Below the pieces are notes generated by a model, which searched no databases, was not told where the DNA came from, and worked only from the letters and a program-made list of their open reading frames with translations. 64,000 nucleotides of DNA from an uncultured Bifidobacteriaceae bacterium (GTDB lineage Bacteria > Verrucomicrobiota > Verrucomicrobiia > Limisphaerales > UBA11358). The translations under genes and the position numbers were made by a program. This document shows positions 27,963 through 64,000 of the stretch, piece by piece. The DNA lies in contig CAZHIM010000014.1 in assembly GCA_964532525.1 (NCBI GenBank), forward strand, positions 19,552-83,551. Reading direction: 5' to 3'. The stretch's first letter is position 1. Each line of letters starts with the position of its first letter.

Positions 27963-28036
27963 CCCGCGCAATTCCGACGCCCCGCCGCCGTTCCCCATGG
28001 CCGCTCAGTTTTCCACTGAAAACAGCGAAAGCGGGC

Positions 28037-50096: not shown

Positions 50097-51668
50097 TCAG
50101 CCCGCCAAATGCCGCGCTTGGCGCTTGGCGAGCGAATTTCGGGGCGTGGACGCGGCGGCGCGCCGGCCGTTTTCCACCGGCAGAAATTCCCGGAGGCACT
50201 CGGGCACGTCGTGGCGGCCGCCGCGCTGCCAGTCCTCCGCCATCACTTGGGCCACGCCCGCCGAGGCCAGCTTCAATTCGGCGGTGAGAAACGCAAACAC
50301 CAGTTCCGTCAATCGCGCCAGCGCGATGCTGTCCGTCCGCCCCAGCCGGGCATACAACCAGTCGCTCAGGCGCAGGAAGCCGGCGAACGGCGATTCCCCG
50401 CCCCAGATCAGTGGCGTGGCGCGCACGAAGTTGCCGCTATTGCCGATCAGCTCCCAATACTTCGCGAACCGGCGCAGGCGCTGCATCGTGGCAAAGTCAA
50501 TCAACCGGTTTTGCAGGATTTCGTAGGGCGGCAGCGCATGGTAGATCATCTGCCACTCCGCATCGTGCCGCCCGATCGGCGTGCCGCGCAGCCGTTTCAA
50601 AATGCCCACTTGAATCTCCTGCGGCCCCAGCGCAATCAATCGGTCAAAGCCCGCCGCAAAGCTCTCCACCGTCTCCCCCGGCAGGCCGGCGATGAGATCG
50701 GCGTGAATGTGGACGCTCGTGTGGGTGCGCAAAAAATTGAGATTGTCCGCCAGCCGCTCGTAATTCTGCCGGCGGCTGATGTTCTGGCCCACCTCGGGAT
50801 TGAACGTCTGCACCCCCACCTCGAATTGCAGCGCGCCGGGCGGGAACCGGGCGATGACCTCCCGCAATTCCCCCGGCAGCCGGTCCGGGACCATTTCAAA
50901 ATGATAAAAATTCCCCGGCTGGTGCCGCGCCAGGAAGAATTCCAGGATCGCCCGGCCGGTGGCGATGTTCAGGTTGAACGTCCGGTCCACGAACTTGAAC
51001 TGCTTGAGCCCGCGATCCAGCAGCTTCTGCATCGCCGCCAAAAATGTCTCCAGCGGCACCGCCCGCACCGGGATGTCCAGCGACGACAGGCAGAATTCGC
51101 AGGTGAAGGGACAGCCTCGCGACGCCTCGACATAGATGATGCGATGCGCGATGTCCGCGTCCGTGTAATACTCGTAGGGCAGGGCGAGGCGCGAAAACTC
51201 CGGCGGCTCGGCGGGAATGATCTTGGGCAGGGGCGCCCGGCTCGGGGCGTGGCCGTTCCCCTCCGGCGAACCGTTCCCGCCCGCCAGCAATTCCCCGCAC
51301 ACTTCCGCAAATTTCAGGTCGCCCTCGCCGGTGATCACGTGATCCGCCAGCCGCACCAGTTCCTGCCCCTCGGTTTCATAGCTCACTTCCGGACCGCCCA
51401 AAACGATGATGATGTCCGGCCGCACGCGTTTGATGGCCGCCACCACGGCGGTGGTTTCCGTCACGTTCCAGATGTAAACGCCCAGGCCGAGGATTTTGGG
51501 CGCGCGGGCCAGCAGTGCTTCGGCGATGTCCAGCGGGCGCTGGTTGATGTCGAACTCCGCGATGGCCGCGCGCGGCTGCAGCGCGCCGAGGTTGGCGAAG
51601 AGATAGCGCAAGCCGAACGCGGCGTGAATGAACTTCGCGTTGAGGGTGGCGAGGACGATGTCCGGCAT
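50097..51668 (-). CDS. B12-binding-domain radical SAM protein (DUF4080-type)
   Basis: The ATG at 51668 gives [23 protein letters not shown]..., and the radical SAM motif is [13 protein letters not shown]. Confidence 0.85.
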
Positions 51669-51725
51669 TGCCGCCAAATTACCAACGTTTGCAGCAAACG
51701 CCAAAAGGGAAATCGGTCCGGCCGG

Positions 51726-54443
51726 TCAGGGTTTCGCGGCGGCGGCCTTCATGGCCAAGGCCCGGGCGAGGTTGTTGCTGGCCTCCGCGGAATCCGGCCG
51801 CAGGCGGACGGCTTCCCGGAACTCAACGATGGCGTCATCCAGCCGCCCCTGGCCGCCCAGCACCACGCCGAGCCGGTCGTGCGCCGCGGCATAATCCGGT
51901 TTCAGGCGGATGGCGGCTTGGAACTCGGCGATGGCCTCGCTCGCGCGGCCCAGTTTGGCCAGGGCCACCGCGAGGTAATGGTGCGCCGGCGCGAAATCCG
52001 GCGCCAGCCGGGTGACGGTTCGAAATTCGCCGATGGCGTCATCCACCCGGCCCAATTTGTAGAAGGCGCTGGCGAGATTGTAGTGTGCGTCCCGGTAGTC
52101 GGGCTTGCTGTGGACGGCGGCCTGGAACTGGGCGATGGCGTCATCGGCGCGGTCCCTGGCCGCGAGCAGATTGCCGAGGTTGTTATGGGCCTCGGCAAAG
52201 TCCGGGGCCAGCCGGATGGCCGCCTGGAACTGGCCCATCGCTTCGTCCGTGCGCCCCGCCTTGGCGAACAGGTTGCCCAGTTTGTAATGGGTGTCGGCAT
52301 CATCGGGCCGGAGGCTCAGGGCCTGCTGAAACTGCGCGATGGCGCCGTCCGGCTGGCCGTTTTTGGCCAGCAAATTCGCCCAGTTGTAGTGCGCATCGGC
52401 ATCATCCGGCTGGAGCCGGAGGGCCGCTTGAAATTCCCTGATGGCGGCCTGCGTTTGACCTCGCATCGCCAGCACGTTGCCCAGGTTGTTGTGGGCTTCG
52501 GGCCAGTCGTTTTTCAGCCGGACCGCTGCTTGCAACTGGACGATCGCATCGTCAGCCTGCCCCTGGCTGGCCAGCGCGTTGCCCAGCTCGAAATGGGCCT
52601 GCGGATCATCCGGTTTTTCGCGCAACGCCTGCTGAAACTGGCTGATGGCCAAGTCGGTTTGTCCGCCCCGGGCCAGCAAAGTGCCAAAGTTATAGTGGGC
52701 GTCGGGGTAGTCCGGGCTAAGGGCGATGACCTGCTGAAATTGGGCGATGGCTTCATTGGTCCGGCCGGCCAAGTCCAGCAGCGCCGCCAGATTGTTGCGG
52801 GCCTCAACGTAATCGGGCCGCAGGCGGACGGCGTTCTGGAATTCCTGGAAGGCGGCGTTGGTTTGGCCTTGGGCCAGCAGCATTGTGGCGAGATTGTTGT
52901 GGGGATCGGCAAACCCCGGTTGCAGGCGGATGGCAGTCTCATATTCCCTGATGGCGGCCGGCGTTTGGCCCTTCTGTTTCAAGGCGTTGCCGAGGTTGTT
53001 GTGGGCCTCCACGCAGTTGGCTCGGTCCCGGAGGGCGGCCTGAAACTCGTTGAGGGCGGCATCCACCTGGCCCCGGTCCATCAGGACGGTTCCGAGATTG
53101 TTGCGCGCCACCTCGTTGTCGGCCGTGACTTCCAGCGAGTGGCGGAAGAGAATCTCGCTGTTCTGCCAAAAGCCAATCTGGTGCCAGGTTGCAGCGCACA
53201 GAATGACGGCTGCCAAGCCGGCCAGCGCGCCGGCCAGCGCCTCCTGTCGCCAGCGCCGGGCCAACTCGGAGATGCCCCAGACGATCAGCACGAATATGCC
53301 CAACGACGGGATGTAAGTGTAACGATCCGCCATGGCCTGAATGCCCACCTGCACCAAGCCAATCACCGGCACCAGCGTGCCGATAAACCAAAACCAGCCC
53401 ACCGGCAGAAACGGATATGGTCGCCGGGCCAGCCAAACCAGGATCGAAATGCCCGCCAGACATGCGCCAGCCAGAAGCACCCCCCCCACCGGCCAGTGCC
53501 CGGGATGCGGATAGAAGAATGCCAGGTCCACCGGCCAGACCAGCTTGAGCAGATAGCGGCCATAGGAAACCACGGCATTCTCGCACCGGCTGCCAAAAGT
53601 CAGGTGTTCCAATATCTTCATGGCGCCCGTTTGGTGTTGGACGTAAAACGTCATCAGGCTCCCCGCTGCTGCCAAGGCAAAGAAGGGAAGCTTTTCCACC
53701 AGCAACCGCCCCGCGCGGCCCGGCTGGAACCGTTTCAACGGCCAATAATCCAACAGCAGCAGGACAAACGGCCACGTCACCAGCATCGGCTTGCTCAGCA
53801 GCCCGAGGGCGAAACAAAAGCAGGCCAGCCAGTACCAGGCCGAGACATAAAACACGGGGCCGGCGCCGGCTTCCGCGGCTTCCGCATCCTTGGTTTTCCG
53901 CCCCTGCGCATAAGCCGAGTACAGCAGCAGTGTCACGAGCCCGAAGCAAGTGCTCAGCACGTCCTTGCGTTCCGCCACCCACGCCACCGACTCCACGTGC
54001 AACGGGTGCCAGCCAAAGAGGGCTGCCACCATTGCGCTCCGCCAGCGTGCCCCGGTGAGCCGGTGCAACAGCAGGAAGACCAGCACCGTGTTCAGGGCGT
54101 GCAGCAAAATGCTGGTGAGATGATGTCCCCACGGCCGCAAGCCATACCACTGGCAGTCCAGCATGTGGGACAGAACGGTCAGCGGATGCCAGTTCGAGCA
54201 AACCACAGCCGTAAGCGCCCACCGGATGTTTTCCAAAGTCAGACCGCGTTGCACCTCGAGATTTGCCGTTACATATTGGCCATCGTCATAGGCCACGAAT
54301 TCATGACGCAGGACGGGCGTATAGAGTGCGAAGGTGAGCAACCCCAATACGGCGGCCAGCAACCAGGCGGGAAAGCGCGTCCGTTTCACCGACACGGATT
54401 CCCCGGTTGGCGGGTGGGCGGCTTCAGTTGGTGGTCGGAACAT
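51726..54443 (-). CDS. TMTC-like membrane protein: N-terminal multi-TM (O-mannosyltransferase-like) domain plus long C-terminal TPR array
   Basis: N-terminal FVAYDDGQYV...NWHPLTVLSHMLDCQ...GHHLTSILLHALN with about 10 TM helices, then more than 12 TPR units (AHNNLGN.L...G....AI..F..A..L.PD). Confidence 0.8.
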   Translation of the reverse strand: MFRPPTEAAHPPTGESVSVKRTRFPAWLLAAVLGLLTFALYTPVLRHEFVAYDDGQYVTANLEVQRGLTLENIRWALTAVVCSNWHPLTVLSHMLDCQWYGLRPWGHHLTSILLHALNTVLVFLLLHRLTGARWRSAMVAALFGWHPLHVESVAWVAERKDVLSTCFGLVTLLLYSAYAQGRKTKDAEAAEAGAGPVFYVSAWYWLACFCFALGLLSKPMLVTWPFVLLLLDYWPLKRFQPGRAGRLLVEKLPFFALAAAGSLMTFYVQHQTGAMKILEHLTFGSRCENAVVSYGRYLLKLVWPVDLAFFYPHPGHWPVGGVLLAGACLAGISILVWLARRPYPFLPVGWFWFIGTLVPVIGLVQVGIQAMADRYTYIPSLGIFVLIVWGISELARRWRQEALAGALAGLAAVILCAATWHQIGFWQNSEILFRHSLEVTADNEVARNNLGTVLMDRGQVDAALNEFQAALRDRANCVEAHNNLGNALKQKGQTPAAIREYETAIRLQPGFADPHNNLATMLLAQGQTNAAFQEFQNAVRLRPDYVEARNNLAALLDLAGRTNEAIAQFQQVIALSPDYPDAHYNFGTLLARGGQTDLAISQFQQALREKPDDPQAHFELGNALASQGQADDAIVQLQAAVRLKNDWPEAHNNLGNVLAMRGQTQAAIREFQAALRLQPDDADAHYNWANLLAKNGQPDGAIAQFQQALSLRPDDADTHYKLGNLFAKAGRTDEAMGQFQAAIRLAPDFAEAHNNLGNLLAARDRADDAIAQFQAAVHSKPDYRDAHYNLASAFYKLGRVDDAIGEFRTVTRLAPDFAPAHHYLAVALAKLGRASEAIAEFQAAIRLKPDYAAAHDRLGVVLGGQGRLDDAIVEFREAVRLRPDSAEASNNLARALAMKAAAAKP

Positions 54444-54601
54444 ACGGATGTCGGGGTTTCGCGGCTCTTGGCGGCTTGGGCCTCATTTGTTAAACGAAAA
54501 CCGGCTGGTTGTGCAAGCCGCTTTGGCGGCGCCGTTCGTCCGTTCGTCCCGGCGGAGGGCCGCCCGCGGCAGGTCTGCGAAAAGACCGGTTGGGGGGAAG
54601 A

Positions 54602-54676
54602 TGGTGCGCGGTAGAGGTTTCGAACCTCTGACCCCTACCGTGTCAAGGTAATGCTCTACCACTGAGCTAACCGCGC
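54602..54676 (-). tRNA. tRNA-Val (anticodon GAC), CCA encoded
   Basis: The reverse complement folds as a cloverleaf. Acceptor GCGCGGT/ACCGCGC; D-stem GCTC/GAGC; anticodon stem TTACC/GGTAG; loop TTGACAC; T-stem AGAGG/CCTCT; loop TTCGAAA; 3' ACCA. Confidence 0.9.
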
Positions 54677-54831
54677 AACCGATGGCCATGTTTGCTAGCG
54701 AACACCGCATTTTCATTGAGGTTTTACGGCCTTTTCCTCAACTCCGCTCAACGCAACTTCTACCAAGCTCCTACCAACCTGTTGCCCTTTTGCGATTGAT
54801 TTTTTGGGCACAAACGGGCACAGTTGGCTCG

Positions 54832-55947
54832 ATGAAATTCTCGATTTCATATTTGCCTGCCCGCAAGCGCTGGCGATTAGAATATCGTAATGGGAAACGC
54901 TTCAGGGTCAACTTCAAAACAAAAGCCCTGGCCCAGGCGGAGGCTGAACGGCTCCAGGAAGACCTGGAAAGGGCCGGCGCGGTGTGGGTGGCCATGTCAC
55001 ACCCGGAACGGAATGAACTCATGTCTGTGGTCACGGAGATGCGCGAGGAGGGCCTTACGCCGCGGCAGGCCTGGGATGAATTCAAAAGGCTGCGGGTGGC
55101 CGGTGGGGCACAAACGGGCACAGTGACGGCAGAAAAGGCGCTAACGGAGTTGCACAATGCCAAGCTGGCCGCGGGGCGGGCCAAGCTCTACCTGGCCAAC
55201 TTGAAGCAGATCATCGGTGATTTCATTGTGGGCCGTGAGTATCTGCCAGTGTCCAGGTTCACCTTGGCGGACGTGGAGACCTTCCTGAACCAGTACAACA
55301 TCGAGTATCGGAGCACGCTCCGCAGCCGGCTGGCGACTTGGTTCCGGTTCGCTGTCAAACGCGGCTACCGGGCGGATAACCCCTGTGAGCGCTTGGAGAC
55401 CATCCGGCTCCGCAGGGGAGCCCCGCGGGTGTTCACGCTGCCGGAGGTCACGAAGGCCCTGGGCTGGCTCCAGGTGCATCCGCGGGCGCTGGCGTGGTTC
55501 TACCTGTCCACTTTTGCCGGCTTGCGCCCGGAGGAGGCTCAAAAGACAACGTGGAAGATGATAAATTTTCAGGACGGGTGGATACGCTGCGAGGAGCAGA
55601 CCACCAAGACCGGCGAGCGCCGGGTGGTTTACCCGCGGCCCGGGGTCATGGACGCCTTGAAATACGCGAAGGCGGCGGGCAGCGTGCTTCCCTTGTCCCG
55701 CCTGCAAATGAGACGGGAACGGACGAAATTGCGCAAGGCCCTGGGGCTGGAAGCATGGCCGAAGGACGTGACACGGCACACCGCAGCCTCCATGTGGCTG
55801 GCTGCTGCTGGGGAGGCATCCAAGGTGGCTGGCCAGCTCGGGCATAGCGAACGCATCCTGCACAGCCGCTACAAGGCCTTGGTGTTGCGGACCGACGCGC
55901 AAAAGTTCTGGTGGCTGGTGGACAGTTGTGCCGAGCTGCCATCGTAA
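54832..55947 (+). CDS. Tyrosine-type site-specific integrase
   Basis: The ATG at 54832 gives MKFSISYLPARKRWRLEYRNGKRF... The catalytic region has GLRPEEA, TRHTAASMWL and GHSERILHSRY (R..H-x-x-R..H..Y pattern). Lies directly beside tRNA-Val. Confidence 0.85.
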   Translation: MKFSISYLPARKRWRLEYRNGKRFRVNFKTKALAQAEAERLQEDLERAGAVWVAMSHPERNELMSVVTEMREEGLTPRQAWDEFKRLRVAGGAQTGTVTAEKALTELHNAKLAAGRAKLYLANLKQIIGDFIVGREYLPVSRFTLADVETFLNQYNIEYRSTLRSRLATWFRFAVKRGYRADNPCERLETIRLRRGAPRVFTLPEVTKALGWLQVHPRALAWFYLSTFAGLRPEEAQKTTWKMINFQDGWIRCEEQTTKTGERRVVYPRPGVMDALKYAKAAGSVLPLSRLQMRRERTKLRKALGLEAWPKDVTRHTAASMWLAAAGEASKVAGQLGHSERILHSRYKALVLRTDAQKFWWLVDSCAELPS

Positions 55948-56114
55948 TGCTGCCAGAACCTCATTTCAGGCTGCCGCTGGACCCGCGCAGATCTCATGAA
56001 GCCGGCGCTCCGCCTGGGCGGCGATGGTATGATCGTCGGTTTCAAAGATGACCTTGGCAGAGCCAGACTGGTGGTCAATAAAAGGCAGGGGGGAGAAGTC
56101 CTATACAGAATCAT

Positions 56115-56167
56115 CTAACTATTATCTATTATTAACTATTAAATAATTGATAATAGATAATAGTTAG
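56115..56167. repeat. 53-bp A/T-only-rich near-perfect palindrome (function unknown; candidate protein-binding or recombination site)
   Basis: ctaactattatctattat (56115-56132) is the exact reverse complement of ataatagataatagttag (56150-56167). The 17-nt centre also pairs apart from 2 mismatches. Built from TAACTATTA-type units. Confidence 0.8.
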
Positions 56168-56253
56168 TAGCGTTTTATATAGAGCTTTCCCCCTCGGGTT
56201 TTCCCGCGGAGCCCCGGCCCCGGAGAAATTGCCCCCGGCCCCCGCTTTTTTTG

Positions 56254-56290
56254 AAAAATTAACCCCACCCCTCCCCTGCCAGGAGGTAGC
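56254..56290. repeat. Left copy of a ~38-nt imperfect inverted repeat bracketing the recombinase cassette
   Basis: aaaaattaaccccacccctcccctgccaggaggtagc compared with the reverse complement of 57677-57715 (aaaaaattaacccccaccctcccccatcaggaggtaagc). Mostly identical with a few 1-nt indels. Confidence 0.7.
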
Positions 56291-56602
56291 TCCGATTTCC
56301 TGCACTCTAGATGAAGCAATATGTCCAGTGACGACAGGCGAGCAGTATAATATAGGTGGAACTCCGCCACGTTGCATCCTGGTGGCCATCTCTGGGACCA
56401 GGCAAGCCAACTCGGTCGGTAAGTTTTAGACCAGAAGAAGCCGGGCTGAGGGCGCACGCAGGCGCGCTGGAGGCCCGCCCGGACGCGTTTGATCGCGCGG
56501 CGGGGTGGAGAAGAGCCGGCAAGGCTGCTGCGAGCCCCTGGAGGGCATTCCTGCCCCGCCGGACGGACGCTACGCTGCCGGCGTTGCCGCCCGAAGCATG
56601 GT

Positions 56603-57160
56603 TCAGGTGGTCGAAACCGGGATTTTCAATTCCCGGGCTATCGCCCGAACCCCGAGCCCACGCGCCTTGAGCGTCAGCACTTCCGCGGGAACCCGGTTAT
56701 GCTTTGGATGCCGGCCAAGCTTCACGCCGCGGGCCTTGGCGGCGGCCAGCCCGGCGTTAACCCGCTCGCGGATTATCTCGCGCTCAAACTCAGCCACGGC
56801 CATGAGGACGTTCATTTGGAGCCGGCCAACCGGATTGCTGTTGCTGGTGTCTATCCCCTGGCTCGTGGCGATCAGGGCGACGCCATTACGCTCCAATTCG
56901 GCCAGCAGCAGCGCCAGATGGGGCAAGGAGCGGCCCAAGCGGTCGAGCTTGAAGACTACCACCCGCTCAATCTTGCCAGCCCGTATGGCGGCCATGAGCG
57001 CGTCGAGGCCGGGCCGGACGAATTTGGCCCCCGATATCTGGTCAGAGTAGATTTGGACTTCGCGCCAGCCGCGGCGCTCGCAATAGGCGCGGAGTTCGTG
57101 TTCTTGGCTGTCGGTTGTTTGCCCGTCAGTCGAAACTCGGACATAGAGTGCAGTGTTCAT
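56603..57160 (-). CDS. Serine recombinase (resolvase/invertase family)
   Basis: MNTALYVRVSTDGQ (catalytic Ser), RPGLDALM, VFKLDRLGRS, EFEREIIRERVNAGL and a GR-rich linker. The C-terminal HTH ends abruptly at ...IARELKIPVSTT. Confidence 0.9.
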   Translation of the reverse strand: MNTALYVRVSTDGQTTDSQEHELRAYCERRGWREVQIYSDQISGAKFVRPGLDALMAAIRAGKIERVVVFKLDRLGRSLPHLALLLAELERNGVALIATSQGIDTSNSNPVGRLQMNVLMAVAEFEREIIRERVNAGLAAAKARGVKLGRHPKHNRVPAEVLTLKARGLGVRAIARELKIPVSTT

Positions 57161-57212
57161 AAAATCAATTGTATCCGGACACTAATTTGTGCTTGGGTAT
57201 TCCCTCGGGAAT

Positions 57213-57464
57213 TTAGTGCTTTTTAGGCTTCTTTTGGGGGAGGGATTCCGGCCGGCCTGAATCGTCGGTGGCGGCTTTCAAGAAGACGCTCCCGGTTAAA
57301 GGCGGTTTTTCGCCTGGCTTTGCCCCGTTTGCCGCGGGCCGGGACAGAATTCTCCAGCCGCCGGAGAAGAGTTCGGGCGCGTTCTCCGGCGTGGCCAATC
57401 TTATCCGCGAAGTTGTCTCCGGGCTTCCAGGCGCCGTTTGTTTTGCATTTTTATCGTTTTTCAT
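57213..57464 (-). CDS. Small basic protein (hypothetical) upstream of the recombinase
   Basis: ATG at 57464 is preceded by GGAGAtaatc. The 83-aa product is Lys/Pro-rich with no recognisable family. The track ORF extends to 57533. Confidence 0.35.
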   Translation of the reverse strand: MKNDKNAKQTAPGSPETTSRIRLATPENAPELFSGGWRILSRPAANGAKPGEKPPLTGSVFLKAATDDSGRPESLPQKKPKKH

Positions 57465-57566
57465 GATTATCTCCACTTTCTCTTTTCTGGTTCCATCCAG
57501 GACTCCCCCAAGCCGGCGGGGAGGTACACGCACACCAGCCTGGTTCTGCCCCTCCCCTATAAAGCA

Positions 57567-57608
57567 CCTTCAATTTATCAATTTAATTTTAAGTTGATAA
57601 ATTGAAGG
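57567..57608. promoter_or_regulatory. 42-bp A/T-rich palindrome containing a hix-like 26-bp dyad (candidate serine-recombinase site or operator)
   Basis: ccttcaatttatcaa (57567-57581) and ttgataaattgaagg (57594-57608) are exact inverted repeats. The inner 26 bp read TTATCAATTTAA-TT-TTAAGTTGATAA (57575-57600). Lies ~100 nt upstream of the small-ORF/recombinase unit. Confidence 0.6.
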
Positions 57609-57676
57609 GGGTTTATGGAGGTTTTGCAGAGACCGAGGCCCCGCCGCCCGCCCAGACCCCCCAGGGTCAAAAAATG

Positions 57677-57715
57677 GCTTACCTCCTGATGGGGGAGGGT
57701 GGGGGTTAATTTTTT
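57677..57715. repeat. Right copy of the ~38-nt imperfect inverted repeat
   Basis: gcttacctcctgatgggggagggtgggggttaatttttt. See 56254-56290. Confidence 0.7.
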
Positions 57716-57984
57716 ACAAAATATCCACGGCGGGGGTATTTTCCCCATAGGCCAGCTCCGATGCCTTCGATGTATGGTCATGGTCGTTTTTTTTGCGTGC
57801 TGCCTAACGCATCAGGGAGGATGTGCGACGACAGAATCCCTCCGCGGGATAAGGTCATCGGGAACAGTTTTCGGAGAATCTTTTCTCCGCACATCGGAGC
57901 CGGTGTTAGGCCCCTACCACCGTGACTCTCGCACCCGCGAAAGCTCGGATTGGTAGCCATGACCGCTACGGGTCAGGCATTCCT

Positions 57985-58848
57985 GATGCTCAAAACAGAG
58001 TGTGCCTTAGTACTAAAAAGGCAAGCGCAAAGTGGTCGGGCGTCGCATCCGGCGGCAGCGTCAGCTCCACCCAGGTCAGTGCCTGCGCCAAACTCCGTGG
58101 ATGCCGAGGTCCAGCTCTGACGTGACCACCCCCTCGTCGCCTGCCCCTATGTGGTGTTCGATGCCCGCTACGAAAAGGTCCGCCACGACGGTCAACTCCG
58201 CGATTGCGCCGTCCTCGTTGCCCGGACATCACCGCCGAAGGCAAGCGCTCCATCTTGGGCGTCAGCGTCGCCCTCAGTGAAGCCGAAGCCCATTGGCGCA
58301 CCTTCTTCCAAGGCCTCGTCCAGCGCGGCCTCTGCGGCGTCACTTACATCGTCAGCGATGACCACCCCGGCATGGCTGCCGCCCGTAAAGCCGTCTTTGG
58401 CCCCGTCCCGTGGCAGCGCTGCCAGTTCCATCTTCAGCAAAACGCCCAAGCCTACGTGCCCCGCCTGGATCAGCGGGCCGAAGTCGCCCGCGCCATCCGC
58501 AGTGTCTTGGACTGCCCCTCGCGCCACGCCGCTGAATTGCGGCTCAAGGAAATCGCCAGCGACTATGCCAAAAGCGCGCCCCAACTGGCCCGCTGGCTGG
58601 AGGAAAACCTGCCCCAAGGCTTCACCGTCTTCGCCTTGCCCGCCGCCCATCAGAAACGCCTGCGCACCTCCGATGCGCTCGAACGCGTCAACCAGGAACT
58701 CAAACGCCGCACCCGCGTGGCCCGCGTCTTTCCGAACGAGGTCTCCCTCCTGCGGCTCACCACCGCGCTCTTATGCGAAACCAATGACGATTGGGAAACC
58801 GGAAAAATTTACCTCAACATGGAGAACCAAACCCGGCCCTCAGTTTAA
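57985..58848 (+). pseudogene. IS256-family (Mutator-type) transposase, 5'-truncated with frameshifts and an in-frame stop
   Basis: The C-terminal two-thirds can be read across three frames: ...VSSTQVSACAKL / VDAEVQL*RDHPLVACPYVVFDARYEKVRHDGQLRDCAVLVA / ITAEGKRSILGVSVALSEAEAHW...PWQRCQFHLQQNAQAYVPR...LRTSDALERVNQELKRRTRVARVFPNE. Stop codon at 58118-58120. Confidence 0.8.
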
Positions 58849-58971
58849 ATGCTAACAACTTTTACAGAAAAAACTTGCGCCTCCTGTGAACAAATAAGGC
58901 TTGTCAATTGGAGGCTTACTGATTACCACCAAACGACAGCATTCAGGATTGACAGGAACATCAGATCATTT

Positions 58972-59595
58972 ATGAAACCGTATCCCATTCAACTTGAAAT
59001 TTCCGGCCCAACTGCCATGTGGACGCGGCCCGACACCGGTTCGTCGCCCGTTTCCTATACCGCACCCACATTCAGCGCCGTGAAGGGTATTTTCGAATCT
59101 GTCCTGCGCTGGAAATCCGTGAATGTCCGGCCGATGAAGGTCGAGATTTGTGCGCCCGTGCAATTCCACCGATACACGACGAATTACGGCGGGCCGCTCC
59201 GAGCCAGCGACGCCATGAACAAAGGCGCGTCATTCCAATTTTACGCCGTCGTGTTGGTCAATGTGTGCTACCGGCTTTACGCGCAGGCCGAGTTTGCCGG
59301 GCATCACGACAGCACCACTTGGCCGCCACATGCGTATCATGATGTTTTCAATCGCGCCTTGGAACGCGGCCAATGGTTCTACACGCCGTGTTTGGGATGG
59401 AAGGAATTCGCCCCGGATTATGTCGGCCCGTTTCGCTCGGAAACTCGCGTTTGCGAAGCCGAGAACCACGAACTGTCCTCGATGCTGCGGATGGTATTTG
59501 ACCAGATGCAGGGCGGTAAAGTGAAGCCGTCTTTCTACAACATGCGCAATCACCCCAACCTCCGCGTCGAGAAAGGAGTCCTCACCTATGCTTAA
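58972..59595 (+). CDS. cas5: CRISPR-associated protein Cas5, subtype I-C-like
   Basis: MKPYPIQLEISGPTAMWTRPDTGSSPVSYTAPTFSAVKGIFESVLRWKSVNVRPMKVEICAPVQF follows the Cas5d pattern (xxGxxAxxTRPE/D...VSY..PT.SA.KGI.E...WK). ATG at 58972. Confidence 0.8.
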   Translation: MKPYPIQLEISGPTAMWTRPDTGSSPVSYTAPTFSAVKGIFESVLRWKSVNVRPMKVEICAPVQFHRYTTNYGGPLRASDAMNKGASFQFYAVVLVNVCYRLYAQAEFAGHHDSTTWPPHAYHDVFNRALERGQWFYTPCLGWKEFAPDYVGPFRSETRVCEAENHELSSMLRMVFDQMQGGKVKPSFYNMRNHPNLRVEKGVLTYA

Positions 59596-61771
59596 CGAAC
59601 TGTCACAGGTGGCAGACTCATTGGAACGGCTTGGCACGGTTCCAGGGTCACGCCATCCGCGGATCAACCCAATGGGCAAGAACAGAGACTTGATTGTTGT
59701 ACTGTTGGGCGGATCTGGCAATCCTTTACGCCTTGAGGTTCTGTCCGGCGAAATTGCCGCAAACTTGTTCCGTATTGAGCACGGTTCAGCCGGTTCGAGC
59801 TTTCCCGGTTTTAACATTCCATCTCCGTTACGGTGGCTTGATGACGCTCTCGTGACGGAATTGAGACCGGCTGTTGAGAAGCTGCTTGCACTCGGCAAGA
59901 ATAAAAACTCCAGCGCAGCAGAAATTGCGCAAGCCGTTCTTGTGCTGTTTAGGCTCTCCAAGCCAGCTGTTTTCAGCGCGAGCCAAGAGAAGCAGTTCTA
60001 CCGATCATGTTCCGAATTGACTTCAGAACTCAACGAATGGCTGCCTCGCGAAATGGCGGAGCTGAAGAATTTTACGACGCTGGTGGAAACGGTTGCAAAA
60101 TCGAAGCCGACGCTGCCTGCATTCGCAGAGTCGCTTACGGGCTTGATGGTGAGTCAAAACGCTGAACCTGACCGCATGATGTTGCTGCTGTTTCAGAAAG
60201 TTTTATTCGGAACACTTGATTGGAAAAAACGCGCTCCCGAGATTGGGTCGCCTGACTATTGGAATGAGAAGGCCAGGCAGGACAAAAACGCCAACCAGCC
60301 AATTTATCTCGACTTGGCGTCGCCAGATATGGTCTTTTGCAGAGTTGCCCATTCAAAGACGAGTGCACTCGTCAATGAGGCCCTTATCCGAACCGAGTCC
60401 AAGGTCTCCGACTGTGAGCCGGAACAAAGGAACTTGACAGAAGACGCCTTCGGCGAAACAGCAGTGTTGCAGGACAAATTTCCACCCGGGCCGAAAGTTG
60501 CGGAACTTGGCAACGTAAAACTATTTTCAGTGAATACCAACGAGGTACAGGCGTTACAGCGGTATCGCTTCAAAGGTTCGCAATCATTTCCAGTTTCGTC
60601 GGCGCGAGTTCAGAAGATGAGTGACGCGTTGCTTTATCTCGCGAGCGAAGATAAGCGTGGCATCACCTGCCGCGCTATACCAAGCGCGCAACCGGACAAA
60701 CGCGACCTGCTCGTTGCCTACTTGGAAGGTGAACCGACAAATCGCACCCAACTGGCGGAAATGTTTGGAGGCGAGGCAAACAAATTTTCGGATGCCGATT
60801 TCGAAGAGATTGCCAGGCCAGTTTTGGAGATGCTTGACGGCAAAGTGGCAGCCAACCCAAATCTCAGTGTTCGGCTGCTGGCGTTCTGCCCGATAGACAA
60901 GGCCAAGAAACAAATTAGCCTTAACCGACGCCTGCGTGTAGGCGATGTTGTCAGGGCGGCACGGGATTGGGAAATGGGCGCACGCAACGTACCTGAAATC
61001 TCTGTTTGGTTCTACGACAAGAACGCCAGACAATCTGTTTTCCGCTCACACACCGCGCCTTGTCCGCTCGAATTGGCATCGGTCGTCAACCGCGTTTGGA
61101 GCGCGGACGCTAAGAGTGGCTTCCAATCCACTTACCAGCGGGCGCTTTCTGTCGCCGACGCCTACGATGTATTTCTTGCGGACACGCCAGTTGCGCAGGA
61201 AAAGACGCGGACCGCCTTGGGATTGCTCATAACTCGAATGAGAACGGTGTTGATCGCCCTCGGCGCGGCAAAAACCGCCCGGGAGTGGACTGCTTTGAGC
61301 GATACTGTTCGCTGGCAGTCAGTCAAAACATTCGCCCTTCTCGGAATTCTCCTCCATCAGCTCAAACACCAAAGAAAGAACTTTATGCAAGAATCCATCA
61401 CTCACGTCGGACGGTTGCTCGCCTTGGCAGACAGCTTGCACCAGCAATATTGCAAACATGTGCGTAAGGGCGAATCACCCTCGCAACTCATCGGTAATGC
61501 CCTTTTCAACACCGCGCTCGACCAACCGGTCTTCGCGTTGGCTCGGTTGGCGGAGCGATTGGCTCCCTATCAAGCTTGGGCGCGGACTTTCCAGAGCAAT
61601 GATCCGGAAGCAGGCGTCGGGTTGATAAAATATTTCCTTGGCGAAATCGCCACCTGCACCGCTGCGATCCAATTGAACGAATTGCCCCAGCGTATGACCG
61701 ACATTGACAAAGCGAAACTCTTGCTCGGCTATCTGGCAGACCACCCCAAAAGCGAAACTTCGAAACAATAA
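59588..61771 (+). CDS. cas8c: CRISPR-associated large subunit, Cas8c (Csd1)-like
   Basis: Positioned between cas5 and cas7, with an 8-nt overlap with cas5. The C-terminal helical region VGRLLALADSLHQQ...LIGNALFNTALDQP...LPQRMTDIDKAKLLLGYL parallels the conserved Cas8c tail (GRLFAVLE..Q ... F.MGYY). At 727 aa it is longer than typical Csd1. Confidence 0.7.
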   Translation: MLNELSQVADSLERLGTVPGSRHPRINPMGKNRDLIVVLLGGSGNPLRLEVLSGEIAANLFRIEHGSAGSSFPGFNIPSPLRWLDDALVTELRPAVEKLLALGKNKNSSAAEIAQAVLVLFRLSKPAVFSASQEKQFYRSCSELTSELNEWLPREMAELKNFTTLVETVAKSKPTLPAFAESLTGLMVSQNAEPDRMMLLLFQKVLFGTLDWKKRAPEIGSPDYWNEKARQDKNANQPIYLDLASPDMVFCRVAHSKTSALVNEALIRTESKVSDCEPEQRNLTEDAFGETAVLQDKFPPGPKVAELGNVKLFSVNTNEVQALQRYRFKGSQSFPVSSARVQKMSDALLYLASEDKRGITCRAIPSAQPDKRDLLVAYLEGEPTNRTQLAEMFGGEANKFSDADFEEIARPVLEMLDGKVAANPNLSVRLLAFCPIDKAKKQISLNRRLRVGDVVRAARDWEMGARNVPEISVWFYDKNARQSVFRSHTAPCPLELASVVNRVWSADAKSGFQSTYQRALSVADAYDVFLADTPVAQEKTRTALGLLITRMRTVLIALGAAKTAREWTALSDTVRWQSVKTFALLGILLHQLKHQRKNFMQESITHVGRLLALADSLHQQYCKHVRKGESPSQLIGNALFNTALDQPVFALARLAERLAPYQAWARTFQSNDPEAGVGLIKYFLGEIATCTAAIQLNELPQRMTDIDKAKLLLGYLADHPKSETSKQ

Positions 61772-61795
61772 TCCGACCCAAAACTGATTCAATTT

Positions 61796-62695
61796 ATGAG
61801 CACAACCAAAGACAACAACCTTGTCCCCCGTATTACTGGACTCCTGATTTTGGAGGTCCGCAAATCCAACCCGAACGGCGACCCGGAGCGCGAGAGTTCC
61901 CCGCGCCAGCGCCCGGATGGCAAAGGCGAAATTTCGCCCGTCTCCGTGAAACGAAAACTCCGCGACCTCGTTCTTGAAAAGGAAGGTGTTGTCTGGGAAG
62001 AAATCAAGAAAGAGCTTGGCCTTGATGACAACCGCTTCCAAATTTTGGAGAGTCGAGGACGTAACCGCGAAGAGATCAAAAAGAAAATGGAGCCGAAAGA
62101 CGGCAAAATCGGCCAGGAGTTTATAGACGCCTATTGGGATGGGCGTCTTTTTGGCAACACGTTTCTTGAGGAAGGCGGAGCGGACACAATTCGTGCTGGC
62201 GTCGCCCATTTTGGCGTGGGAGTTTCCATCGCCCCGGTTGAAATCGAATTCTCAACTTGGACCAGCAAGTCCGGCGTTGAAACTGGAAAAGATCGTGGCA
62301 TGGCGCCAATGGCTTTTCGCGTTGTCAAGCACGGGCTTTATGCCGTTCCGTTTTTCGTGAACGCGAACCAAGCGCACAAGACCGGGTGCACGAAGCAGGA
62401 CGTGGACTTGATGTTGCACCTGCTAAAGCATACCTACGCCAGCACTCGCTCGGTTGTCCGCTCGATGGTCGAGGTCGTTCACGCTCATACGCTCACCCAC
62501 AAGAGCCGCGCAGGTTCGGTTTCTGATTTCGCTTTCATTGACGCCTTCACACCAAAGAAGCTCGAAAAGCCTTCAGAGTCGCTGGCGGATTACGGCGTGC
62601 TTCCAACATGGGAGAAGATCAAAGACCAGACCATCCGCCCCGACAGTAACGTTACGTTCGCGCAATGCGGTGAATACCACGACTACGCTTTGTGA
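61796..62695 (+). CDS. cas7: CRISPR-associated protein Cas7, Csd2/DevR family (I-C/I-B type)
   Basis: LILEVRKSNPNGDPERESSPRQRPDGKGEISPVSVKRKLRDLV contains the SNPNGDP...KRK(I/L)R signature of this family. Confidence 0.8.
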   Translation: MSTTKDNNLVPRITGLLILEVRKSNPNGDPERESSPRQRPDGKGEISPVSVKRKLRDLVLEKEGVVWEEIKKELGLDDNRFQILESRGRNREEIKKKMEPKDGKIGQEFIDAYWDGRLFGNTFLEEGGADTIRAGVAHFGVGVSIAPVEIEFSTWTSKSGVETGKDRGMAPMAFRVVKHGLYAVPFFVNANQAHKTGCTKQDVDLMLHLLKHTYASTRSVVRSMVEVVHAHTLTHKSRAGSVSDFAFIDAFTPKKLEKPSESLADYGVLPTWEKIKDQTIRPDSNVTFAQCGEYHDYAL

Positions 62696-64000
62696 GCGAA
62701 CCCGCGACCAAGCTTGAGCCGCTTGCCCACAGCGCCCGCGATGGGGCACCGGAACAGTCGTATAGCGACCATGCCGGGAATGTCCTTCGTGATGCAACAG
62801 GGTTTGCGCGGGCAGCGGTCGCGTTGTCACCCAAGTGGTGCGGTTCGTTTGTGGCGGCGGTCGAGCGGGCGGCGGCTTACCATGACCTCGGCAAATTGGA
62901 CGAGTTGTTTCAAGAAGTTCTACGCCACAATCGAAAGAACAAGCACGGATTCAATCACGTCGAAGGGGGTACAGCGCATTTGCTGCGCATAAAGCAATTT
63001 GAAGCGGCGTTTACTGCCTATGGTCACCACATCGGGTTGCCGTCGTTTCCCAAGGAAAAGGCCAAGTTTGCCAACGGTCACAATCTCGTGTTTCGCGACA
63101 CGGGCGAACTTGATGGGTTGGAGCAAGCCGCATGGCAGCGAACCGAGGAACATCTGGAAAGCTATTTGTGCCAGCATCACAAATTGCTTGCTCCCATTTC
63201 GCCAGTAGCTAACCAACACTTTACTGGTTTGGTGCGCCGCCTTGCCTTGTCCTGCCTGGTGGACGCCGACCACTCGGATACGGCGCGGCATTACCGGAAC
63301 GAGCGCGAAGTGCCCAGCCCGGATTTGCGCCCGGCGGAGCGTTTGGCGCGGTTGGATGAATATGTGGCCGGTTTGTCCGCGAAGAACCCGCCGGCAAATG
63401 ACAGGGAGCGACAGCGGCTGAAATTACGGCAGTTGGTGTATAGTGCGTGCCGTGAGAGAAAACTTGGCGACGGGGAGCACATTCTTGCGTGTGATAGCCC
63501 CGTTGGCACAGGCAAAACTACGGCAGTCATGGCACATCTCTTGCGCATGGCGGCGGAGCGGAAATTGCGTCGCGTGTTCGTCGTGCTACCGTTTACCAAT
63601 ATAATTGACCAATCGGTGGACGTTTATCGCCGTGCGTTGTGTCTAGCCGGGGAGTCCATGGAGGCAATGGAGAACGTGGTAGCCGCCCATCATCATCGCG
63701 TGGATTTCTCAAGCTATGAGGCACGATGTCTTGCCGCGCGCTGGGATTCACCCATTGTCGTCACCACTGCCGTCCAGTTCTTTGAGACGCTCGCCGCTTG
63801 TGACACAGCTTCTTTGCGTAAACTTCACCAGGTAGCTGGCAGCGCAATTTTTGTGGATGAGGCGCACGCTGCTGTTCCGCCCGCACTTTGGCCGCAAATG
63901 TTTCGCTGGTTGCGGGAACTTTGCGACGACTGGGGTTGCCATCTTGTGCTGGCTTCCGGCACTTTGCCGCGTTTCTGGAATCGTCCCGGATTCCTTAGGG
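62692..64000 (+). CDS. cas3: CRISPR-associated nuclease/helicase Cas3 (HD domain + DEAH helicase; 3' end beyond window)
   Basis: Not in the ORF track because it has no stop in the window. GTG at 62692 overlaps the cas7 stop (GTGA). My translation gives VSEPATKLEPLAHSARDG...AAYHDLGKLDELFQ...LVDADHSD (HD nuclease), then CDSPVGTGKTTAVMAHLL (Walker A) and IFVDEAH (DEAH). Confidence 0.85.
   Translation, partial: MSEPATKLEPLAHSARDGAPEQSYSDHAGNVLRDATGFARAAVALSPKWCGSFVAAVERAAAYHDLGKLDELFQEVLRHNRKNKHGFNHVEGGTAHLLRIKQFEAAFTAYGHHIGLPSFPKEKAKFANGHNLVFRDTGELDGLEQAAWQRTEEHLESYLCQHHKLLAPISPVANQHFTGLVRRLALSCLVDADHSDTARHYRNEREVPSPDLRPAERLARLDEYVAGLSAKNPPANDRERQRLKLRQLVYSACRERKLGDGEHILACDSPVGTGKTTAVMAHLLRMAAERKLRRVFVVLPFTNIIDQSVDVYRRALCLAGESMEAMENVVAAHHHRVDFSSYEARCLAARWDSPIVVTTAVQFFETLAACDTASLRKLHQVAGSAIFVDEAHAAVPPALWPQMFRWLRELCDDWGCHLVLASGTLPRFWNRPGFLR

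What the first reader, a model, noticed from the sequence alone, without database searches (positions are those of the whole stretch)
58972..64000. Type I-C-like CRISPR-Cas effector operon in a non-canonical order (cas5-cas8c-cas7-cas3), with no adaptation genes or array in view
- Cas5 and Cas7 carry subtype I-C signatures, and there is no cas6, as expected for I-C.
- Canonical I-C loci read cas3-cas5-cas8c-cas7-cas4-cas1-cas2. Here cas3 follows cas7 directly (GTGA start/stop overlap), in the position where cas4 normally sits.
- A decayed IS sits where cas3 normally would.
- The four genes are tightly coupled: 8-nt and 4-nt overlaps and one 24-nt gap.
- No repeat-spacer array occurs anywhere in the 64 kb.
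- The operon is carried on a recombinase-rich, A/T-richer island.
- It could be a permuted I-C variant, or an interference-only module borne by a mobile element.
Basis: partly seen in the sequence, partly recalled or inferred. Interest (0 to 1): 0.7.

Follow-up and report, generated by a model that had tools for sequence, protein, structure and literature searches.

The report
Complete type I-C CRISPR-Cas, cas3 relocated
The four genes are the front half of a complete and apparently active type I-C CRISPR-Cas immune system whose cas3 gene sits after cas7, an arrangement shared by a large, mostly verrucomicrobial lineage, so it is an ordinary if under-annotated system rather than a stripped-down or scrambled one.

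Summary
In detail: cas5 (58972-59595), cas8c (59588-61771), cas7 (61796-62695) and cas3 (62692 to the window end) are present, with exactly the overlaps described.

The apparent lack of adaptation genes and array comes from the window edge. Contigs 100% and 99.98% identical to the window continue with full-length cas3 (766 aa), cas4, cas1, cas2 and a 187-nt leader. An array of up to 113 identical 37-nt repeats (…GGATTGAAAC) follows.

All seven proteins score best against type I-C profiles. Cas1 passes NCBI's I-C cut-off, and the divergent Cas8 matches canonical Cas8c profile-to-profile (96%).

The order cas5-cas8c-cas7-cas3 is conserved in every informative related locus, about 20 genomes plus distant metagenomic members. 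The Cas8 family has 935 clusters at 50% identity. Relatives lack the IS remnant, so it did not cause the order.

The locus lies on a ~22-kb island at tRNA-Val, flanked by 47-bp perfect direct repeats and carrying an integrase and a resolvase.

Verdict: a new member of a known kind. "Interference-only" is refuted, "permuted I-C lineage" is supported, and "mobile island" is supported. Open points are the PAM and the absence of the canonical catalytic triad in Cas5.

The parts
54602..54676 (-). tRNA-Val(GAC); integration site of the island
   Evidence: ARAGORN. Its 5' 41 nt lie inside the 47-bp direct repeat.
54636..54682 (.). Left copy (attL) of the 47-bp perfect direct repeat that bounds the island. 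The right copy lies off-window at about 76804-76850 in window-equivalent coordinates.
   Evidence: 47/47 identity between window 54636-54682 and L047 (reverse complement) 1646-1692, which is 1450 nt past the last CRISPR repeat. The same flank is 100% identical in L045, which carries the whole array.
54832..55947 (+). Tyrosine integrase. Gene callers disagree on the start (54682 or 54832).
   Evidence: PF00589 4e-8; gene calls.
56603..57160 (-). Serine recombinase (resolvase family)
   Evidence: PF00239 6e-44.
58204..58848 (+). Truncated IS256/Mutator-family transposase gene, C-terminal half only
   Evidence: PF00872 7.5e-48, profile positions 189-378 of 379. Absent upstream of cas5 in relatives.
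58972..59595 (+). cas5 (Cas5c-like, 207 aa); first gene of the conserved cassette
   Evidence: PADLOC Cas5c 1e-23, PF09704. The nearest solved structure by sequence is N. lactamica I-C Cas5, 4e-12. The canonical Y46/K116/H117 triad is not conserved.
59588..61771 (+). cas8c (divergent large subunit, 727 aa)
   Evidence: PADLOC Cas8c PDLC01562 1e-118 over the full length. hhalign against canonical Cas8c gives 96% probability, E 3.8e-9, over residues 283-716, and 0.5% against Cas8b. No Pfam hit and no PDB sequence hit.
61385..61771 (+). Inferred internal cas11c reading frame (small subunit, 128 aa, from Met600 of Cas8c)
   Evidence: The Met is invariant in 11 homologues down to 27% identity. AAGGAGG lies 6 nt upstream in the Chlorobium homologue, and purine-rich SD-like stretches occur in the others. 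This region aligns to the C-terminal domain of canonical Cas8c. Internal translation of Cas11 in I-C is documented in PMC7684278. Inferred here, not shown.
61796..62695 (+). cas7 (299 aa)
   Evidence: PF05107 2e-42; TIGR02589 (I-C) 107 bits against TIGR02590 (I-B) 56 bits. The nearest solved structure by sequence is D. vulgaris I-C Cas7, 3e-17.
62692..64000 (+). cas3 (HD nuclease plus SF2 helicase), cut by the window end. Full length is 766 aa, ending at window-equivalent 64992.
   Evidence: PADLOC Cas3c 4e-64 for the partial protein and 5e-98 for the full one. HD at residue 64, GTGKT at 272, DEAH at 389, QxxGR at 576. The full gene is present in the identical contig L002.

Best explanation
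This is the 5' half of one complete, apparently active type I-C CRISPR-Cas locus. Its operon reads cas5-cas8c(+internal cas11c)-cas7-cas3-cas4-cas1-cas2-leader-array. It belongs to a large, deep-branching I-C lineage, mostly Verrucomicrobiota, in which cas3 always follows cas7 instead of preceding cas5.

Likely mechanism:
- The array is transcribed from the leader.
- The repeat forms a 10-bp hairpin with a single-stranded GGAUUGAAAC tail.
- Cas5 is inferred to cut at the 3' base of the hairpin, because no Cas6 is present.
- Cas5, Cas8c, several Cas7 and Cas11c assemble on the crRNA into Cascade.
- Cas8c reads a PAM, which is still unknown here, and an R-loop forms.
- Cas3 (HD nuclease plus helicase) is recruited and degrades the target DNA.
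- Cas1-Cas2-Cas4 add new 33-37-nt spacers at the leader end.

In this genome the whole locus is cargo of a ~22-kb island integrated at tRNA-Val. The island is bounded by 47-bp direct repeats and carries a tyrosine integrase, a resolvase and an IS256 remnant.

Shown: gene content, order, family assignments, the array, the island borders, and conservation of the order. Inferred: crRNA processing by Cas5, Cas11c translation, activity, the PAM, and mobility of the island.
For: Extension beyond the window:
- L002 is 100% identical and L001 99.98% identical to window 51796-64000 over 12,205 nt.
- Both continue with cas3 (766 aa), cas4, cas1 and cas2, then a 187-nt leader and the array.
- L045 shares the first 75 spacers in order. 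It holds 113 repeats and 112 spacers, and its terminal repeat is degenerate.

Subtype:
- Cas1 scores 400.8 bits against TIGR03640 (Cas1c), above the 385 cut-off. The best PADLOC hits are Cas4c 3e-66, Cas2c 1e-39 and Cas3c 5e-98.
- hhalign of Cas8 against canonical Cas8c gives 96% and 0.5% against Cas8b.
- The repeat has the I-C-type GTCGC start and ATTGAAAC end and folds at -20.4 kcal/mol, z -3.5.

Order:
- cas5-cas8-cas7-cas3(-cas4-cas1-cas2) is found in all informative loci L005-L026.
- It is also found in the distant members L040 and L043/L044.
- The Cas8 family has 935 clusters at 50% identity.

Signs of activity:
- The HD, Walker A, DEAH and motif VI residues of Cas3 are intact.
- All non-terminal repeats are identical.
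- 110 of the 112 spacers are unique.
- A co-occurring contig, L046, has the same leader and 44 entirely different spacers.

Island:
- The 47-bp perfect repeats are shown.
- Ordinary genes lie beyond the right repeat.
- G+C drops across the island.
Against: - The downstream half is not in the window. It is joined through identical or near-identical contigs from other assemblies.
- Cas5, Cas7 and Cas8 all fall below NCBIfam's I-C trusted cut-offs: 46 against 85, 107 against 182 and 16 against 219 bits.
- The first ~280 residues of Cas8 align to nothing, and the AlphaFold model was poor (pLDDT 43.7).
- The Cas5d catalytic triad Y46/K116/H117 is replaced by L/A, A and Y/F/L. Only a neighbouring His (position 115) is conserved, so processing by Cas5 is not assured.
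- No protospacer was found, so neither targets nor the PAM are known.
- No expression data are available.
Confidence: 0.88

Rival explanations
1. An interference-only Cascade-Cas3 module carried by a mobile element, with no adaptation genes or array of its own.
For: Within the 64-kb window there is no cas1, cas2 or cas4 and no array. The locus does sit on an integrative island.
Against: cas4, cas1, cas2, a leader and 113 repeats follow directly on contigs identical to the window. The same holds in about 15 relatives.
Confidence: 0.02
2. A local rearrangement in this genome: an IS256 element inserted where cas3 used to lie, and cas3 was moved or re-acquired downstream.
For: A truncated IS256-family transposase gene ends 123 nt upstream of cas5, on the same strand.
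Against: All relatives have cas3 after cas7 and none has the IS fragment. One locus (L024) has a weak second cas3-like stretch (30% identity) upstream. Homology among relatives starts exactly at the cas5 ATG. Upstream neighbours are unrelated from genome to genome. Distant family members keep the order.
Confidence: 0.03
3. The effector module (cas5-cas8-cas7-cas3) is a separate subtype-level lineage, intermediate between I-B and I-C. It keeps the I-B-like position of cas3 (possibly the ancestral state) and has merely recombined with I-C adaptation modules.
For: In neighbour-joining trees, Cas5, Cas7 and Cas3 of the lineage form one clade outside all canonical I-C sequences. Cas1, Cas4 and Cas2 nest inside canonical I-C. 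cas3 lies between the effector genes and cas4, as in Haloferax I-B. Cas7 is only 25-29% identical to canonical Cas7c. The repeats are 37 nt rather than 32 nt in most members.
Against: Every protein scores higher against I-C than I-B profiles. Cas8 is homologous to Cas8c and not to Cas8b. There is no cas6, and the cas5-cas8-cas7 order is I-C's. The repeat termini are I-C's, and the Chlorobium member has a canonical 32-nt I-C repeat. An existing curated profile already labels this Cas8 family Cas8c/I-C. The trees have few taxa, use distance methods only and have only a haloarchaeal outgroup.
Confidence: 0.12
4. The locus is a decaying, non-functional remnant carried along on an island.
For: The Cas5 catalytic triad is not conserved. 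An IS remnant lies directly upstream and no sigma-70-like promoter was detected before cas5. No spacer targets were found.
Against: All seven ORFs are intact and tightly coupled. The Cas3 catalytic motifs are intact. The repeats are identical across 112 units. Spacer sets differ between co-occurring strains that share the same leader. The same Cas5 residues are conserved across the whole lineage, which points to selection rather than decay.
Confidence: 0.06

Closest known systems
Canonical type I-C CRISPR-Cas (Desulfovibrio/Nitratidesulfovibrio vulgaris, Bacillus halodurans, Neisseria lactamica)
   Same: - No cas6, and the Cascade genes are in the order cas5-cas8c-cas7.
- Cas3 is a fused HD-helicase protein.
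- The adaptation module is cas4-cas1c-cas2.
- The repeat starts GTCGC, has a central hairpin and ends ATTGAAAC.
- Spacers are 33-37 nt.
- Cas8c has a C-terminal Cas11-like domain with a conserved internal Met.
   Different: - cas3 follows cas7 instead of preceding cas5. The reference order was checked in five annotated plasmids.
- Cas8 is 727 aa. About 280 N-terminal residues cannot be aligned, and it gets no Pfam or NCBIfam call.
- Cas5 and Cas7 are only about 25-30% identical to canonical ones and fall below the trusted cut-offs.
- The repeat is 37 nt with a 10-bp stem.
- The Cas5 Y/K/H triad is replaced.
- The PAM is unknown.
Type I-B CRISPR-Cas (Haloferax volcanii pHV4: cas6-cas8b-cas7-cas5-cas3-cas4-cas1-cas2)
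   Same: cas3 lies between the Cascade genes and cas4-cas1-cas2. The Cas7 and Cas5 families are related.
   Different: The window locus has no cas6, and cas5 comes first rather than last. Its Cas8 is unrelated to Cas8b by profile comparison. I-B profiles score lower for every protein.
Type I-G (formerly I-U; GSU0051-type Cas3g, Cas4-Cas1 fusion)
   Same: Partial, sub-threshold hits of Cas3 to TIGR02621 and of Cas4 and Cas1 to the Cas4g/Cas1g fusion model.
   Different: The scores are far below the cut-offs: 105 against 400, and 146 and 300 against 560. The HD domain is N-terminal, not C-terminal. cas4 and cas1 are separate genes. There is no Csx17/Cas8g and no Cas5-Cas6 fusion.
CRISPR-Cas systems carried as cargo of integrative islands or ICEs (for example type I-C on pKLC102-like ICEs of Pseudomonas aeruginosa; recalled from memory, not checked here)
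   Same: A complete I-C system sits inside an element with an integrase at a tRNA gene, bounded by direct repeats.
   Different: The island is small (~22 kb), and about 18 kb of it is the CRISPR-Cas locus. No conjugation genes were seen. The repeated segment is the 5' part of the tRNA rather than the usual 3' part.

Membership tests
Type I-C CRISPR-Cas | Signature large subunit Cas8c (Csd1) | tested here: met
   PADLOC Cas8c profile PDLC01562 1e-118 over the full length. hhalign against five canonical Cas8c sequences gives 96% probability, E 3.8e-9, 360 columns. The Cas8b control gives 0.5%. However, TIGR01863 scores only 15.9 bits against a 218.65 cut-off, and there is no PF09709 hit.
Type I-C CRISPR-Cas | No Cas6; a Cas5c (Cas5d)-family protein is encoded first in the Cascade operon | tested here: met
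   The seven-gene cassette has no cas6 in the window, in the identical contigs or in relatives. Cas5c 1e-23, PF09704.
Type I-C CRISPR-Cas | Cas5 carries the pre-crRNA endonuclease residues (Y46, K116, H117 of B. halodurans Cas5d; residue identities recalled from Nam et al. 2012) | tested here: inconclusive
   B. thuringiensis Cas5c has Y46/K116/H117. The window protein has L/A/Y at those columns, with a lineage-wide conserved His at column 115. N. lactamica Cas5, from a working I-C system, also lacks Y46 and H117 in the alignment. The triad is therefore not universal.
Type I-C CRISPR-Cas | Cas7 of the Csd2 family | tested here: met
   TIGR02589 8e-31 (107 bits, below the 182 cut-off) against I-B TIGR02590 5e-15. 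The best PDB match by sequence is D. vulgaris I-C Cas7.
Type I-C CRISPR-Cas | Single-polypeptide Cas3 with an N-terminal HD nuclease and an SF2 helicase | tested here: met
   HD domain at residues 26-198, helicase from residue 260, Cas3c profile 5e-98, motifs intact.
Type I-C CRISPR-Cas | Adaptation module cas4-cas1c-cas2 | tested here: met
   Cas1 scores 400.8 bits against TIGR03640, above the 385 cut-off. Cas4c 3e-66, Cas2c 1e-39. The genes were found on contigs identical to the window.
Type I-C CRISPR-Cas | Repeat with a GTCGC start, an internal hairpin and an ATTGAAAC 3' end (source of the 11-nt 5' handle) | tested here: met
   GTCGCCCCGGTCAGGTGGCTGGGGCGCGGATTGAAAC has a 10-bp stem and a 10-nt tail. 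It is 37 nt, whereas the Chlorobium member of the same lineage has 32 nt.
Type I-C CRISPR-Cas | Canonical operon order cas3-cas5-cas8c-cas7-cas4-cas1-cas2 | tested here: not met
   Here the order is cas5-cas8c-cas7-cas3-cas4-cas1-cas2. The canonical order was verified in five annotated I-C plasmids. As far as I know, gene order is not treated as a defining criterion of the subtype.
Type I-C CRISPR-Cas | Small subunit Cas11c made by internal translation within cas8c | tested here: inconclusive
   Met600 is conserved in 11 of 11 homologues, with SD-like purine tracts upstream (AAGGAGG in L025). The mechanism is documented for D. vulgaris (PMC7684278). No protein-level evidence exists for this locus.
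Type I-C CRISPR-Cas | 5'-TTC PAM | not testable with these tools
   No protospacer was found in the window and fetched loci, in the phage collection or in IMG/VR with seven spacer seeds.
Type I-B CRISPR-Cas | Cas6 plus Cas8b, in the order cas6-cas8b-cas7-cas5-cas3 | tested here: not met
   There is no cas6. Cas8 is not similar to Cas8b. cas5 is first, not fourth. Only the position of cas3 agrees.
Type I-G CRISPR-Cas | Cas3g with a C-terminal HD, Csx17/Cas8g, a Cas5-Cas6 fusion and a Cas4-Cas1 fusion | tested here: not met
   Only partial, sub-threshold hits were found. The HD domain is N-terminal, and cas4 and cas1 are separate genes.
tRNA-integrated genomic island | An integrase next to a tRNA gene, direct repeats derived from the tRNA at both ends, and atypical composition | tested here: met
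   tRNA-Val, integrase, 47-bp perfect repeats about 22 kb apart, G+C 0.53-0.58 against 0.62-0.66, and ordinary PVC-type genes beyond attR. No empty site or excised form was found.

The most novel reading that the evidence does not exclude
The lineage may be a functionally distinct I-C sub-subtype rather than a cosmetic permutation. Three things would set it apart:
- Cas5 has lost the canonical Y/K/H active site, so crRNA would be matured through a different catalytic arrangement (the conserved His115) or by a host nuclease.
- The ~280-residue N-terminal part of Cas8 cannot be aligned to Cas8c and could read a different PAM.
- cas3 is co-translated with Cascade, possibly the ancestral I-B-like state. 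That would make the lineage an evolutionary link between I-B and I-C.
Probability: 0.2. Interest if true: 0.45.

Novelty: new member of a known kind. Interest (0 to 1): 0.25.

Why it matters
- The finding shows how a window edge can make a complete adaptive immune locus look like a stripped-down effector module.
- It documents that a large lineage of I-C systems, mostly from Verrucomicrobiota and other PVC bacteria, has cas3 after cas7. Its Cas8c is invisible to Pfam and NCBIfam, and the NCBI- and JGI-named homologues of this protein are nearly all called 'hypothetical protein'. Standard annotation will therefore under-call these systems.
- It gives one clear example of a whole CRISPR-Cas locus carried as the main cargo of a small tRNA-integrated island, which bears on how these systems spread.
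- None of this changes the current picture of how type I-C works.

Tried and rejected
- AlphaFold2 of Cas8 with a 13-sequence alignment gave pLDDT 43.7 and pTM 0.36. That is too poor for a fold search, so none was run and profile-profile comparison was used instead.
- A PDB sequence search with the Cas8 profile found no meaningful hit.
- The protospacer and PAM hunt found nothing:
  - Spacers against the window and all fetched loci gave only chance-level partial hits.
  - The whole array against 50,697 phage records gave no match.
  - Seven spacer seeds of 24-30 nt against IMG/VR gave no match.
- No relative of this Cas8 was found on viral contigs.
- Four full-text searches and six papers read turned up no paper that describes this gene order. 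The two CRISPR-Cas classification papers were not held under the ids I tried. I therefore cannot say whether the order has been explicitly described.
- A search for an empty attB site, through contigs encoding the identical flanking TPR protein, found only contigs that carry the island.
- Simple promoter and terminator scans around cas5 and the leader were uninformative.
- Rfam gave only a sub-threshold match of the repeat to CRISPR-DR9.
- Rejected readings: the IS-driven rearrangement, type I-B, type I-G, and the interference-only module. The reasons are given under the rival explanations and the membership tests.

Full report
**What is in the window**

Four co-directional ORFs occupy 58972-64000:
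- cas5: 58972-59595, 207 aa
- cas8: 59588-61771, 727 aa
- cas7: 61796-62695, 299 aa
- cas3: from GTG 62692, running off the window end

There is an 8-nt overlap between cas5 and cas8 (ATG 59588, TAA 59593-59595). A 24-nt gap separates cas8 from cas7. cas7 and cas3 share a GTGA overlap.

Profile searches identify all four proteins:
- Cas5c: PADLOC 1e-23, PF09704 4e-13.
- Cas8c: PADLOC PDLC01562, 1e-118, covering positions 1-650 of the 658-position profile.
- Cas7: PF05107 2e-42. The I-C model TIGR02589 scores 107 bits and the I-B model TIGR02590 scores 56 bits.
- Cas3: Cas3c 4e-64, with an HD domain at residues 26-198 followed by a DEAD/DEAH helicase.

Cas5, Cas7 and Cas8 all score below NCBIfam's I-C trusted cut-offs, and Cas8 has no Pfam hit. 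The proteins are therefore clearly I-C-like but divergent.

No CRISPR array lies in the 64 kb.

**Beyond the window edge**

An exact-sequence look-up of Cas7 returned four contigs. L002 (ENA ERZ27250145, a 126.6-kb contig) is 100% identical to window 51796-64000 over 12,205 nt. L001 (JGI 3300041809) is 99.98% identical.

Both contigs continue as follows, in window-equivalent coordinates:
- cas3, full length 766 aa, ending at 64992
- cas4: 65019-65633
- cas1: 65652-66761
- cas2: 66776-67066
- a 187-nt leader
- a CRISPR array starting at 67254

The 'missing' adaptation genes and array are therefore a window-edge artefact. The window stops 993 nt before the cas3 stop codon.

**The array**

L001 holds 76 identical copies of the 37-nt repeat GTCGCCCCGGTCAGGTGGCTGGGGCGCGGATTGAAAC, with 75 unique spacers of 33-37 nt.

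I scanned the metagenome collection with the repeat. This returned L045, which carries several features:
- It has the same leader.
- It has the same first 75 spacers in the same order.
- It has 113 repeats and 112 spacers in all.
- Its terminal repeat is degenerate (…GAAAT).
- It includes 2.9 kb of trailer-side flank.

L046 has the same leader, differing at 1 nt, but 44 entirely different spacers. That pattern is what ongoing acquisition or turnover in co-occurring strains would produce.

The repeat folds into a 10-bp stem with a tetraloop and a free GGAUUGAAAC tail (-20.4 kcal/mol, z -3.5). From established knowledge, this is the architecture of I-C repeats.

**Subtype assignment**

- Cas1 passes the NCBIfam equivalog cut-off for type I-C Cas1c (400.8 against 385 bits).
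- Cas4, Cas2 and full-length Cas3 score best against Cas4c (3e-66), Cas2c (1e-39) and Cas3c (5e-98).
- By sequence, Cas5 and Cas7 are nearest to the solved N. lactamica and D. vulgaris I-C Cascade subunits.
- The Cas8 profile finds nothing in the PDB by sequence.
- A profile-profile comparison with five annotated canonical Cas8c proteins gives 96% probability, E 3.8e-9, over 360 columns (residues 283-716). The same test against haloarchaeal Cas8b gives 0.5%.

I confirmed the reference gene orders in annotated records. Five I-C plasmids read cas3-cas5c-cas8c-cas7c followed by the adaptation genes: cas4-cas1c-cas2 in four, while the Monoglobus record lists only cas2 (D. vulgaris, B. thuringiensis, Monoglobus, Streptomyces, Zymomonas). 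Haloferax I-B reads cas6-cas8b-cas7b-cas5b-cas3-cas4-cas1b-cas2.

The locus thus has I-C composition, I-C Cascade gene order and I-C repeats. Only the position of cas3 matches I-B.

**Is the order a local accident?**

It is not.
- A scan of one genome per species found 22 loci encoding this Cas8 family. They are mostly Verrucomicrobiota, with Planctomycetota, an Acidobacteriaceae MAG and a Chlorobium MAG at 27% Cas8 identity.
- Every locus long enough to judge reads cas5-cas8-cas7-cas3, followed by cas4-cas1-cas2 wherever the contig extends that far. Where the contig extends further, an array usually follows.
- None has the IS fragment, and none but L024 (a weak 30%-identity cas3-like stretch) has a cas3 hit upstream.
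- DNA homology to the window begins exactly at the cas5 start codon.
- The upstream neighbours are unrelated from genome to genome.
- A full HMMER search of 1.84 billion representative proteins found 935 clusters at 50% identity (525 at E ≤ 1e-30).
- Two distant members that sit on long contigs keep cas5-cas8-cas7-cas3. One of them has the adaptation module inverted upstream.

Neighbour-joining trees have few taxa and should be treated as indicative. They place Cas5, Cas7 and Cas3 of the lineage in one clade beside canonical I-C. Cas1, Cas4 and Cas2 nest within canonical I-C.

**Two finer points**

First, Met600 of Cas8 is invariant in all 11 homologues compared. It is preceded by purine-rich, SD-like sequence, a perfect AAGGAGG in the Chlorobium member. 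It opens a 128-aa C-terminal frame that aligns with the Cas11-like domain of canonical Cas8c. Internal translation of Cas11c from cas8c is documented for D. vulgaris (PMC7684278). I infer the same here.

Second, the Cas5d catalytic triad is Y46/K116/H117 (recalled from the B. halodurans work, and present at exactly those positions in B. thuringiensis Cas5c). In this lineage it is replaced by L/A, A and Y/F/L, with a conserved His one position earlier. N. lactamica Cas5 also lacks two of the three residues (alignment), so this does not rule out processing. It does mean that Cas5-mediated maturation is inferred rather than shown.

**The island**

tRNA-Val lies at 54602-54676 on the minus strand. 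Four further elements follow, up to the cas operon:
- a tyrosine integrase (54832-55947)
- a resolvase (56603-57160)
- small ORFs
- the C-terminal half of an IS256-family transposase gene (58204-58848; profile positions 189-378 of 379)

A 47-bp segment, window 54636-54682, comprises the 5' 41 nt of the tRNA plus 6 nt. It recurs perfectly 1450 nt beyond the last CRISPR repeat in L047 and L045.

Beyond that second copy lie a WbsX glycosyltransferase, a giant Ig/CBM protein and a DUF1559 protein, which are ordinary PVC-type genes.

The island therefore spans about 22.2 kb, window-equivalent 54636-76850. About 18 kb of that is the CRISPR-Cas locus. G+C is 0.53-0.58 inside the island and 0.62-0.66 to its left. 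No empty site or excised form was found, so present-day mobility is inferred.

**Mechanism (inferred from the family, apart from the anatomy shown above)**

1. The leader drives transcription of the array.
2. The pre-crRNA is cut at the base of the repeat hairpin, probably by Cas5.
3. Cascade (Cas5, Cas8c, Cas7 multimer, Cas11c) assembles on the crRNA.
4. Cas8c recognises the PAM.
5. An R-loop forms.
6. Cas3 is recruited and degrades the DNA processively.
7. Cas1-Cas2-Cas4 acquire new spacers.

Cas3 has intact HD, GTGKT, DEAH and QxxGR motifs.

**Comparison and novelty**

This is a member of type I-C, in a deep sub-lineage with a relocated cas3, a divergent Cas8c, a longer repeat and altered Cas5 residues. 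A curated profile that labels this Cas8 family Cas8c/I-C already exists in public Cas profile sets. The lineage is therefore not unknown to curators.

I found no paper that discusses its gene order. NCBI and JGI name most of these Cas8 proteins 'hypothetical'.

I rate it a new member of a known kind, of modest interest. Its main value is corrective. The 'permuted I-C' and 'mobile island' readings hold, and the 'interference-only' and 'IS displaced cas3' readings do not.

**What led nowhere**

- The AlphaFold model of Cas8 was too poor to use.
- No protospacers were found.
- No viral contig carries this Cas8.
- The promoter and terminator scans and Rfam were uninformative.

Noticed in passing
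window 54602-54832: The 47-bp island repeat covers the 5' part of tRNA-Val plus 6 nt upstream, not the 3' part that tRNA-integrating elements usually duplicate. The integrase gene abuts the 5' end of the tRNA, so after integration the tRNA's promoter region is island DNA.
   Followed up: partly
L046 1-3328 (reverse complement): A contig with the same 124-nt leader (1 nt different) and the same repeat, but 44 spacers that share nothing with the 112 spacers of L045. It is either a co-occurring strain with a fully turned-over array or a second array.
   Followed up: partly
L047 11155-11349: The last spacers of this contig are numbers 101 and 112 of L045's 112 (positions 100 and 111 counting from 0), so the spacers between them are missing here. 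This is either a real deletion or an assembly collapse.
   Followed up: no
L025 8334-9326 and 17507-19874: The Chlorobium member of the lineage has a WYL/WCX/HTH regulator gene directly upstream of cas5 and a canonical 32-nt I-C repeat. Its Cas1, Cas4 and Cas2 group with those of D. vulgaris, while its effector genes group with the verrucomicrobial clade. This suggests exchange of modules.
   Followed up: partly
L040 234-11136: In this distant family member cas4-cas1-cas2 are inverted upstream of cas5-cas8-cas7-cas3. Three unannotated ORFs and a tyrosine integrase follow cas3.
   Followed up: no
L024 1482-3608: A second cas5-like stretch and a second cas3-like stretch (30% identity) lie about 5-7 kb upstream of the main locus. 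This may be a remnant of another system.
   Followed up: no
L015 7261-13102: Only partial tblastn matches to Cas5, Cas8 and Cas7, plus extra cas5 fragments upstream. These look like frameshifts or pseudogenes, or errors in the assembly.
   Followed up: no
window 26001-28000 and 28149-28169: G+C dips to 0.549 at 26-28 kb, which may mark another foreign segment. One spacer of L046 matches 20 of 21 nt at 28149-28169 (E 8e-4 for that query alone, with 156 spacers tested), most likely by chance.
   Followed up: no
window 50109-54614 (+): A 1501-aa ORF lies antisense to the 905-aa TPR-repeat gene (51726-54443, minus strand). It is almost certainly a spurious open frame of the kind common in high-G+C DNA. 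Gene callers on the identical contigs call only the TPR gene.
   Followed up: partly
window 59588-61771 and its homologues: Nearly all public homologues of this Cas8c are named 'hypothetical protein', and most have no Pfam domain on record. Standard annotation misses the large subunit of this lineage.
   Followed up: partly
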